Shown piece by piece: positions 34,290 through 34,381 of a stretch of 64,000 bases of DNA (position 1 is the first letter of the stretch; the number at the start of each line of letters is the position of its first letter). Source of the DNA: a virus (lineage: Duplodnaviria; Caudoviricetes); the IMG/VR virus record IMGVR_UViG_3300025450_001231; one strand, written 5' to 3'. The position numbers were made by a program, and so were the translations under genes. Under the pieces are notes generated by a model. The model had not been told where the DNA came from, ran no database searches, and saw only the letters and a list, made by a program, of their open reading frames with translations.

Positions 34290-34381
34290 GGAAGTGTGGT
34301 AGAGTCCGGTTGATTGCAACAGTCTTAAAAACTATCGAGCACGCAAGTGTTCCGTGAGTTCGAATCTCACCACTTCCGCCA
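34290..34381 (+). tRNA. tRNA with serine body and TAA anticodon
   Basis: GGAAGTGTGG start, long variable arm GAGCAC-GCAA-GTGTTC, G73, but ACAGT-CTTAAAA-ACTAT. Confidence 0.75.

What the first reader, a model, noticed from the sequence alone, without database searches (positions are those of the whole stretch)
34290..34381. Serine-identity tRNA carrying a leucine UAA anticodon
Seen: acceptor GGAAGTG, G73 and a long variable arm typical of tRNA-Ser(UGA), but the loop reads CT-TAA-AA and the stem has one C:A mismatch (ACAGT/ACTAT). Two G-to-A changes separate it from a canonical Ser(TGA). A true Leu(TAA) tRNA exists separately at 33658. Established: SerRS recognises the variable arm and acceptor, not the anticodon, so such a tRNA could insert Ser at UUA/UUG codons. 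Inference: it is a mistranslating allo-tRNA, a decoy or escape variant against anticodon nucleases, or a decaying pseudogene.
Basis: partly seen in the sequence, partly recalled or inferred. Interest (0 to 1): 0.7.

Follow-up and report, generated by a model that had tools for sequence, protein, structure and literature searches.

The report
Mutated phage serine tRNA reading leucine
A lake phage carries a serine transfer-RNA gene whose anticodon has mutated to read leucine codons. The change is real and found in several independent assemblies, but a second mutation weakens the gene and a sister strain has lost it, so it is most likely a disabled relic.

Summary
Window 34290-34381 (+) is a canonical 7/5 long-variable-arm tRNA with G73 and encoded CCA. 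Its anticodon is TAA and it has one C28:A42 mismatch.

- **Serine body:** a serine tRNA model built from related phages scores it 80.4 bits; the leucine model scores 41.4.
- **Relatives differ:** 26 distinct orthologues from 42 copies all read TGA with an intact stem. The two G-to-A changes (34327, 34334) are therefore derived and seen only in this lineage.
- **Not an assembly error:** three assemblies beyond a 100%-identical contig, and contigs of two sequencing runs, carry the identical allele.
- **Weakened arm:** the mismatch raises the predicted anticodon-arm energy from -2.3 to +0.5 kcal/mol.
- **Lost in a sister strain:** a strain 99.6-99.9% identical in the flanks has replaced the tRNA body with 30-nt stubs and a dead serine-like tRNA.
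- **Codon context:** this phage rarely uses UCN serine codons, while UUA and UUG make up 61% of its leucine codons.

Best reading (about 0.6): an attenuated or dead relic of tRNA-Ser(UGA). Residual serine insertion at leucine codons remains possible (about 0.25). It is not an allo-tRNA and has no antisense partner, unlike serine-type odd tRNAs this scan noted on other genomes. Expression and charging are untested.

The parts
34290..34381 (+). Serine-type tRNA (7/5 cloverleaf, long variable arm, G73, encoded CCA) with anticodon TAA
   Evidence: ARAGORN; Rfam 43.9 bits; Ser model 80.4 bits against Leu model 41.4 bits
34326..34328 (+). Anticodon T34-A35-A36. A35 (34327) is G in all 26 distinct orthologues.
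34334..34334 (+). A42, which is G or a compensated pair in orthologues. It faces C28 (34320) and makes a C:A mismatch.
   Evidence: predicted arm energy +0.5 against -2.3 kcal/mol
34300..34300 (+). T11, which is C in 24 of 26 orthologues. It turns the C11:G24 pair of the D stem into a T:G wobble.
   Evidence: alignment
33658..33944 (+). True tRNA-Leu(TAA) with A73, interrupted after T34 by a group I intron. It is the cognate decoder of the same codons.
   Evidence: sequence; Rfam RF00028 58.9 bits at 33683-33874
34205..34284 (+). tRNA-Leu(CAA), the upstream neighbour, 5 nt away
   Evidence: ARAGORN; Leu model 68.2 bits
34470..34561 (+). tRNA-Ser(GCT), the phage's only intact serine tRNA. It reads AGY, which is 67% of serine codons.
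   Evidence: Ser model 91.5 bits; codon counts
34390..34418 (+). Perfect consensus sigma-70-type promoter (TTGACA-17-TATAAT) 9 nt after the CCA. The tRNA is therefore the last gene of the upstream run.
   Evidence: 12 of 12 matches; a consensus match only

Best explanation
This is a recently disabled or strongly attenuated derivative of the phage's tRNA-Ser(UGA) gene. An ancestral, conserved Ser(UGA) tRNA took a G35A transition, which gave it the leucine anticodon UAA. It also took a G42A transition, which breaks one of only two G-C pairs in the anticodon stem, and a C11T change in the D stem. Seryl-tRNA synthetase does not read the anticodon. A fully active form would therefore insert serine at UUA/UUG, the phage's commonest leucine codons, and would be harmful. 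The weakened arm most likely keeps activity very low or nil, and the gene is drifting toward loss. The phage barely needs it, because it uses few UCN codons and keeps Ser(GCU). Shown: the serine body, the derived changes, the allele being real, and the loss in a sister strain. Inferred: serine charging, low activity, and the order of the mutations.
For: **Serine body.** The tRNA is 87% identical to Ser(tga) of the nearest IMG/VR relatives and at most 65% identical to any Leu tRNA. The Ser model scores it 80.4 bits and the Leu model 41.4 bits, which is the background level for non-Leu tRNAs. All 42 Leu tRNAs of relatives have A73; this one has G73.

**Derived and unique.** All 30 IMG/VR contigs matching the arm pattern with either base at the two sites have G/G. 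All 26 distinct orthologues read TGA. It is the only body/anticodon mismatch among 103 distinct Ser/Leu tRNAs in 123 loci.

**More change at conserved positions.** It deviates at 3 of 52 columns that are at least 95% conserved, none of them compensatory. The other 19 window tRNAs tested deviate at 7 of 572, four of them as compensated pairs (Fisher p = 0.043).

**Real allele.** The identical tRNA occurs in L111, L112, L113 and L115, from JGI and ENA assemblies. L112 and L113 differ from the window at other sites. Logan contigs of runs X1 and X2 cover it with no differences.

**Weak arm.** Predicted arm energy is +0.5 against -2.3 kcal/mol. Ensemble pair probabilities are at most 0.05, against about 0.55-0.67 when G42 is restored. 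It is the fourth weakest of 698 arms.

**Lost in a sister strain.** L114 and L117 are 99.6-99.9% identical in the flanks. They replace 34294-34361 with two 30-nt stubs around a dead Ser-like tRNA that lacks its 5' acceptor strand and has a 5-nt anticodon loop. The same joint appears in runs X11 and X12.

**Dispensable, and costly if active.** UCN codons are 33% of serine codons. UUA plus UUG are 61% of leucine codons and 4.7% of all codons.

**Literature.** A serine-identity tRNA with anticodon UAA inserts serine at UUA in E. coli, and its induction arrests growth (PMC5389517). Second-site mutations, many creating G:U pairs or altering stem pairing, damp the toxicity of mistranslating tRNA-Ser (PMC6827378).
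Against: A single 28:42 mismatch is not proof of death. 20 of 698 distinct tRNAs of this phage group have one, and a few apparently normal tRNAs have equally weak predicted arms. The acceptor stem, T-arm, variable arm (6 bp with compensated changes) and CCA are all intact. The nearest-neighbour energies ignore tertiary contacts, base modifications and a possible protonated C:A wobble. The excess of changes at conserved sites is only marginally significant (p = 0.043). No expression or charging data exist. The allele recurs in several samples, so it is at least not strongly counter-selected, which would also fit a tolerated active form.
Confidence: 0.6

Rival explanations
1. It is a live, damped mistranslator. 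The tRNA is transcribed, processed and charged by the host SerRS, and inserts serine at a low rate at UUA/UUG during infection. The G42A and C11T changes act as second-site attenuators that make it tolerable. The effect is neutral, mildly harmful or occasionally useful.
For: All serine charging marks readable from sequence remain: long variable arm, G73, and G1:C72, G2:C71 and A3:U70. The anticodon loop CTTAAAA is identical to that of the true Leu(TAA) tRNA. The allele recurs in four assemblies and two runs. 28:42 mismatches occur in otherwise ordinary tRNAs. The yeast work shows exactly this kind of second-site damping (PMC6827378). A human tRNA-Ser G35A variant mistranslates in cells (PMC12993449 abstract).
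Against: Predicted anticodon-stem pairing nearly vanishes. A sister strain does without the gene. No relative keeps such an allele. 4.7% of all codons would be at risk. The phage also supplies two cognate competitors, Leu(TAA) and Leu(CAA).
Confidence: 0.25
2. It has an adaptive non-decoding role. The RNA would act as a decoy or uncleavable competitor for a host anticodon nuclease that cuts Ser(NGA) tRNAs at the GA of the anticodon, or one that targets tRNA-Leu(UAA). Alternatively it serves as a tRNA-like processing or regulatory element.
For: Mycobacterial VapC toxins cut Ser(NGA) tRNAs at the GA inside the anticodon, and mycobacteriophages avoid encoding these tRNAs while keeping Ser(GCT) (PMC10264068). 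G35A removes that GA, and this phage likewise keeps only Ser(GCT). The array also holds other tRNA-like remnants.
Against: The published escape pattern keeps the anticodon and changes neighbouring loop bases. Here the loop is otherwise unchanged and the decoding function is lost. The allele is confined to one near-clonal lineage, with no conservation. The sister strain deletes the body. The host and its nucleases are unknown.
Confidence: 0.08
3. It is a working leucine tRNA: the serine-derived body has switched identity and is charged by LeuRS.
For: The anticodon and the whole anticodon loop match tRNA-Leu(UAA). C11T removes a pair that I recall as a serine determinant in E. coli (from memory, not tested).
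Against: It has G73, whereas A73 is invariant in all 42 Leu tRNAs of relatives and is the main LeuRS determinant (established knowledge). The Leu model score is at background, 41.4 bits. The phage already has Leu(TAA), Leu(CAA) and Leu(TAG) genes.
Confidence: 0.04
4. It is an assembly or sequencing artefact, and the real sequence is TGA.
For: Two nearby changes of the same type could come from a damaged template.
Against: The identical allele occurs in JGI and ENA assemblies from different samples that differ from the window at other sites. It also occurs in Logan contigs of two runs at depth 23 and 12.6 with no alternative base listed.
Confidence: 0.01

Closest known systems
Phage and bacterial tRNA-Ser(UGA), e.g. 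orthologues L001:9439-9528 and L120:2037-2128
   Same: Same gene by descent, with 87-90% identity. It shares the 7/5 cloverleaf, D-loop, T-arm, G73, long variable arm and the anticodon-arm sequence, apart from two bases.
   Different: G35A gives anticodon TAA, G42A breaks the 28:42 pair, and C11T makes a wobble. It no longer reads UCN codons.
Anticodon-mutant tRNA-Ser mistranslators: the human tRNA-Ser-AGA-2-3 G35A variant and engineered yeast tRNA-Ser(UGG) with second-site damping mutations (PMC12993449, PMC6827378)
   Same: The same mutated position (G35A) on a serine tRNA whose synthetase ignores the anticodon. An accompanying stem-weakening change resembles the selected attenuators.
   Different: Those act in eukaryotic cells with shown mistranslation. 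Here the setting is a phage gene of an uncultured lineage, with no functional data and Leu rather than Phe or Pro codons.
Allo-tRNA(UAA) and allo-tRNA(GAG) of Acidobacteria (Mukai et al., PMC5389517)
   Same: Serine identity marks (long variable arm, G73) combined with a leucine anticodon. The (9/3) allo-tRNA-UAA was shown to insert serine at UUA in E. coli, and inducing it arrested growth.
   Different: Allo-tRNAs have 8/4 or 9/3 acceptor/T-stem geometry and form conserved families. This one is a canonical 7/5 tRNA, a one-off mutant of an ordinary gene, and has no antisense partner.
Nuclease-insensitive phage tRNAs (van den Berg et al., PMC10264068)
   Same: A phage tRNA-array gene with a changed anticodon loop. 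The lost GA dinucleotide is a known VapC cleavage site in Ser(NGA) tRNAs. The phage keeps only Ser(GCT), as reported for mycobacteriophages.
   Different: Escape tRNAs keep their anticodon and decoding role. Here the anticodon itself changed, so the outcome matches 'loss of a targeted tRNA' rather than 'resistant tRNA'.

Membership tests
tRNA-Ser (bacterial-type, class II) | Long variable arm with a paired stem | tested here: met
   18-nt variable region with a 6-bp stem and GCAA loop
tRNA-Ser (bacterial-type, class II) | G73 discriminator and G1:C72, G2:C71, A3:U70 acceptor pairs (E. coli rules, from established knowledge) | tested here: met
   GGAAGTG/CACTTCC followed by G73. G73 is found in most Ser tRNAs of relatives.
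tRNA-Ser (bacterial-type, class II) | Overall fit to a serine isotype model rather than a leucine one | tested here: met
   R1 80.4 bits against R2 41.4 bits; HMM scores 60.6 against 16.1
tRNA-Ser (bacterial-type, class II) | C11:G24 pair in the D stem | tested here: not met
   T11:G24 wobble at 34300; C in 24 of 26 orthologues
tRNA-Ser (bacterial-type, class II) | Serine anticodon (NGA or GCU) | tested here: not met
   The anticodon is TAA
tRNA-Ser (bacterial-type, class II) | Aminoacylation by SerRS | not testable with these tools
   Needs an in vitro charging assay or charged-tRNA sequencing
tRNA-Leu | A73 discriminator | tested here: not met
   G73 here; A73 is invariant in 42 Leu tRNAs of relatives
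tRNA-Leu | Leucine anticodon | tested here: met
   TAA, in a loop identical to that of the true Leu(TAA)
Allo-tRNA (Mukai et al.) | 12-bp acceptor branch arranged 8/4 or 9/3 | tested here: not met
   7-bp acceptor stem plus 5-bp T-stem
Allo-tRNA (Mukai et al.) | Serine identity marks with a non-serine anticodon | tested here: met
Nuclease-escape phage tRNA | Anticodon kept, with loop or stem positions around it changed relative to the targeted tRNA | tested here: not met
   The only loop change is the anticodon's middle base
tRNA pseudogene | Disrupting changes at otherwise conserved positions, absent from relatives | tested here: met
   3 of 52 conserved columns deviate, none compensated. The allele is unique.
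tRNA pseudogene | Gene dispensable: lost in close kin | tested here: met
   L114 and L117 replace the body with stubs
tRNA pseudogene | No mature functional RNA | not testable with these tools
   No RNA run holding the stretch was listed

The most novel reading that the evidence does not exclude
A wild phage population carries a fixed, still active serine tRNA that reads the phage's commonest leucine codons, held at a tolerable level by a built-in stem-weakening mutation. That would be a natural instance of the 'toxic anticodon change plus attenuator' route by which codon reassignment is thought to begin. The sister strain's deletion would be the alternative way out.
Probability: 0.15. Interest if true: 0.7.

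Novelty: new member of a known kind. Interest (0 to 1): 0.35.

Why it matters
If it is only a relic, it is a clean natural snapshot of how phage tRNA arrays shed a gene. Point mutations hit the anticodon arm in one strain, and recombinational scrambling hit the same slot in its sister. It is also a caution for annotation, because ARAGORN labels this gene tRNA-Leu. If it is still active, it would be the first wild phage example of a canonical serine tRNA decoding leucine codons. It could then be used to study how much mistranslation a virus tolerates and how second-site mutations tame a dangerous tRNA.

Tried and rejected
- **IMG/VR, exact 5' half:** a scan for the exact 5' half of the tRNA found nothing, so this lineage's tRNA was not found in IMG/VR.
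- **Metagenome contigs:** two scans, one with a lineage-specific pattern allowing either base at both sites and one with the A35 pattern, found nothing. That collection evidently lacks this lineage, so the blanks give no denominator.
- **GenBank phages:** megablast of 33500-35000 hit only generic tRNA-Thr similarity. tblastn of a neighbouring 592-aa protein gave only distant hits.
- **Whole genome:** none is held for this window.
- **RNA runs:** no RNA holder was listed, so expression could not be examined.
- **Antisense partner:** none found. Only the arm itself matches its reverse complement, at up to 3 mismatches, and there are no inverted repeats nearby.
- **Closest protein-level relatives:** P0002 and P0004, at 82-83% identity, have different gene order. 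They gave outgroup Ser(TGA) genes but no intermediate allele.
- **Alternative reading register:** a register that would make a stop-codon suppressor was considered and dropped, because no alternative stem pairs.
- **Assembly error:** rejected.

Full report
**What is there.** ARAGORN finds 23 tRNAs between 29841 and 35387, all on the + strand. One of them is a 92-nt gene at 34290-34381, called Leu(taa). Rfam's tRNA model scores it 43.9 bits, well above the gathering score of 29 but the second lowest of the array.

Read from the sequence, it has these features:
- a 7-bp acceptor stem, GGAAGTG/CACTTCC
- G73 and an encoded CCA
- a 3-bp D stem with a T11:G24 wobble
- the anticodon arm ACAGT-CTTAAAA-ACTAT at 34319-34335, with C28 (34320) facing A42 (34334)
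- an 18-nt variable region with a 6-bp stem and GCAA loop
- a normal T-arm

So is the remark that a true Leu(TAA) lies near 33658. That gene, at 33658-33944, has A73 and is split after T34 by a group I intron (Rfam RF00028, 58.9 bits). The window holds Ser(GCT) but no Ser(TGA).

**Whose body is it.** A neighbouring 125-aa protein (32548-32925, DUF7448) brought in 80 related IMG/VR loci. Their tRNAs show that the nearest relatives of this gene are Ser(tga) tRNAs at 82-87% identity. The best Leu tRNA is 65% identical.

I built covariance models from 45 Ser and 42 Leu tRNAs of relatives. The Ser model gives this gene 80.4 bits, second only to the phage's own Ser(GCT) at 91.5. The Leu model gives it 41.4 bits, which is the level of unrelated tRNAs, while the true Leu(TAG) and Leu(CAA) score 90.0 and 68.2. 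A73 is invariant in the 42 Leu tRNAs; this gene has G73. The body is therefore serine-type and the anticodon leucine-type.

**How unusual is the allele.**
- A pattern for the anticodon arm that allows A or G at both sites found 30 IMG/VR contigs, and all of them carry G/G.
- All 26 distinct orthologous sequences (42 copies) read TGA with a paired 28:42.
- In a profile screen of 103 distinct Ser- or Leu-anticodon tRNAs from 123 loci, this is the only one whose body and anticodon disagree.
- Against columns that are at least 95% conserved among orthologues, it deviates at three of 52: G20b, A35 and A42, none compensated.
- The other 19 window tRNAs that could be tested deviate at 7 of 572, and four of those are compensated pair swaps. 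Fisher's exact test gives p = 0.043.
- C11T is a further lineage-specific change; C occurs in 24 of 26 orthologues.

**Is it an error.** No. Looking up the exact 125-aa protein returned nine contigs from JGI and ENA assemblies. Four of them span the tRNA and carry it letter for letter: L111, L112, L113 and L115. L112 and L113 differ from the window at 5 and 3 other positions, so they are separate assemblies of slightly different genomes. Logan contigs of two sequencing runs also cover 33997-34560 and 33997-34517 without a single difference, at depths 23 and 12.6.

**The sister strain.** L114 and L117 are 99.6-99.9% identical to the window on both sides. Positions 34294-34361, almost the whole tRNA body, are replaced there by 252 nt. 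The replacement consists of two copies of a 30-nt stub, GGAAAAAGGTGAATCTCACCACTTCCGCCA. These flank fragments also seen beside Ser(TGA) genes in relatives, together with a dead serine-like tRNA. That tRNA scores 33.7 bits on the Ser model, has no 5' acceptor strand, and has a 5-nt anticodon loop lacking two bases. ARAGORN calls no tRNA there.

The same joint (34293 to 34362, with AAAGGT between) appears in two lake-water runs of another year. On its own that was weak, with only 22 letters on one side, but L114 explains it. So within one near-clonal phage species, the Ser(UGA) slot is point-mutated in one strain and scrambled in the other.

**Is the RNA likely to work.**
- In the nearest-neighbour model, the isolated arm goes from -2.3 kcal/mol in orthologues to +0.5.
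- In the full-length ensemble, the arm's pair probabilities fall to 0.05 or less, from about 0.55-0.67 when G42 is restored. The centroid fold loses the arm, while the orthologue keeps it.
- Among 698 distinct tRNAs of this phage group, the arm is the fourth weakest.
- This is not decisive. 20 of the 698 have a 28:42 mismatch, and a few ordinary-looking tRNAs have equally weak arms. The model also ignores tertiary structure and base modifications.

**Cost and need.** In 57 long ORFs of the window, UUA and UUG are 61% of leucine codons and 4.7% of all codons. UCN codons are only 33% of serine codons, and the rest are AGY, read by the intact Ser(GCT). An active serine-charged UAA tRNA would therefore hit very many sites, whereas loss of Ser(UGA) costs little.

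Published work bears on both points:
- A serine-identity tRNA with anticodon UAA inserts serine at UUA in E. coli, and its induction stops growth (PMC5389517).
- In yeast, lethal or toxic tRNA-Ser anticodon mutants become tolerable through second-site changes. Many of these create G:U pairs or alter stem pairing (PMC6827378).
- Mycobacteriophages avoid Ser(NGA) tRNAs, which VapC toxins cut at the GA in the anticodon, and keep Ser(GCT) (PMC10264068).

**Reading.** The best-supported account, at about 0.6, is an attenuated or dead relic of tRNA-Ser(UGA). The order of the two mutations cannot be recovered. Either the stem change inactivated the gene and the anticodon change then drifted in, or the anticodon change created a harmful tRNA and the stem change, or deletion in the sister strain, relieved the harm.

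A still active, damped mistranslator remains possible (about 0.25). A decoy or other non-decoding role is weakly supported (about 0.08), a true leucine tRNA is unlikely (about 0.04), and an artefact is excluded as far as assemblies allow.

It is not an allo-tRNA, since the geometry is 7/5. It also lacks the antisense partner that this scan's earlier notes reported next to some odd serine-type tRNAs on other genomes; no such partner exists in this window.

**Context.** A perfect TTGACA-17-TATAAT promoter match lies 9 nt after the CCA. The gene therefore ends one run of tRNAs, and Ser(GCT)-Thr-Gly may start another. This is a consensus match, not evidence of use.

**Limits.** Expression, processing, charging and decoding are all untested. 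The host is unknown. Within-lineage diversity is too low to test for selection on the gene.

Noticed in passing
window 33658-33944: tRNA-Leu(TAA) is interrupted after T34 by a roughly 200-nt group I intron (Rfam RF00028, 58.9 bits, 33683-33874), the classic cyanobacterial and plastid trnL insertion site. ARAGORN misses the gene. Another note of this scan had already flagged it.
   Followed up: partly
window 34205-34284: tRNA-Leu(CAA) has an A1:C72 mismatch and only an 8-nt variable region with no stem. Some relatives (L013:8393-8473, L015:7550-7630) also have a short 9-nt region, while L004:2785-2871 keeps a long arm. A leucine tRNA without the long arm is unusual for bacteria-type systems.
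   Followed up: partly
L114 2686-2961 (also L117): A sister strain carries two identical 30-nt acceptor/T-arm stubs ending in CCA. They flank about 216 nt of tRNA fragments, including a dead Ser-like tRNA at 2846-2926. The stub could fold as a minihelix; whether it is processed is unknown.
   Followed up: partly
L001 8645-8736; L014 1753-1844; L119 1628-1721 and 14+ other loci: A conserved 92-nt tRNA-like gene is called Ile(tat), with a long variable arm and A73 (GCCAGCGAGACTTG...). It is present in many relatives and in a third strain of this species (L119), but absent from the window.
   Followed up: no
L119 1343-2668 versus window after 33531: A third strain, 99% identical up to tRNA-Gln, continues with His, the odd Ile(tat) and Phe tRNAs, which the window lacks. 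L113 has Val(tac) where the window has Met(cat) at 31866. Array content differs between near-identical strains.
   Followed up: no
window 34390-34418: A 12-of-12 match to the sigma-70 consensus promoter (TTGACA-17-TATAAT) lies inside the tRNA array, just before Ser(GCT).
   Followed up: no
window 32198-32265 and 35233-35308: Weak tRNA-like matches to both models (7-12 bits) fall at sites that other notes describe as a D-armless tRNA mimic and a split tRNA-Val around the HNH gene at 34785-35246.
   Followed up: no
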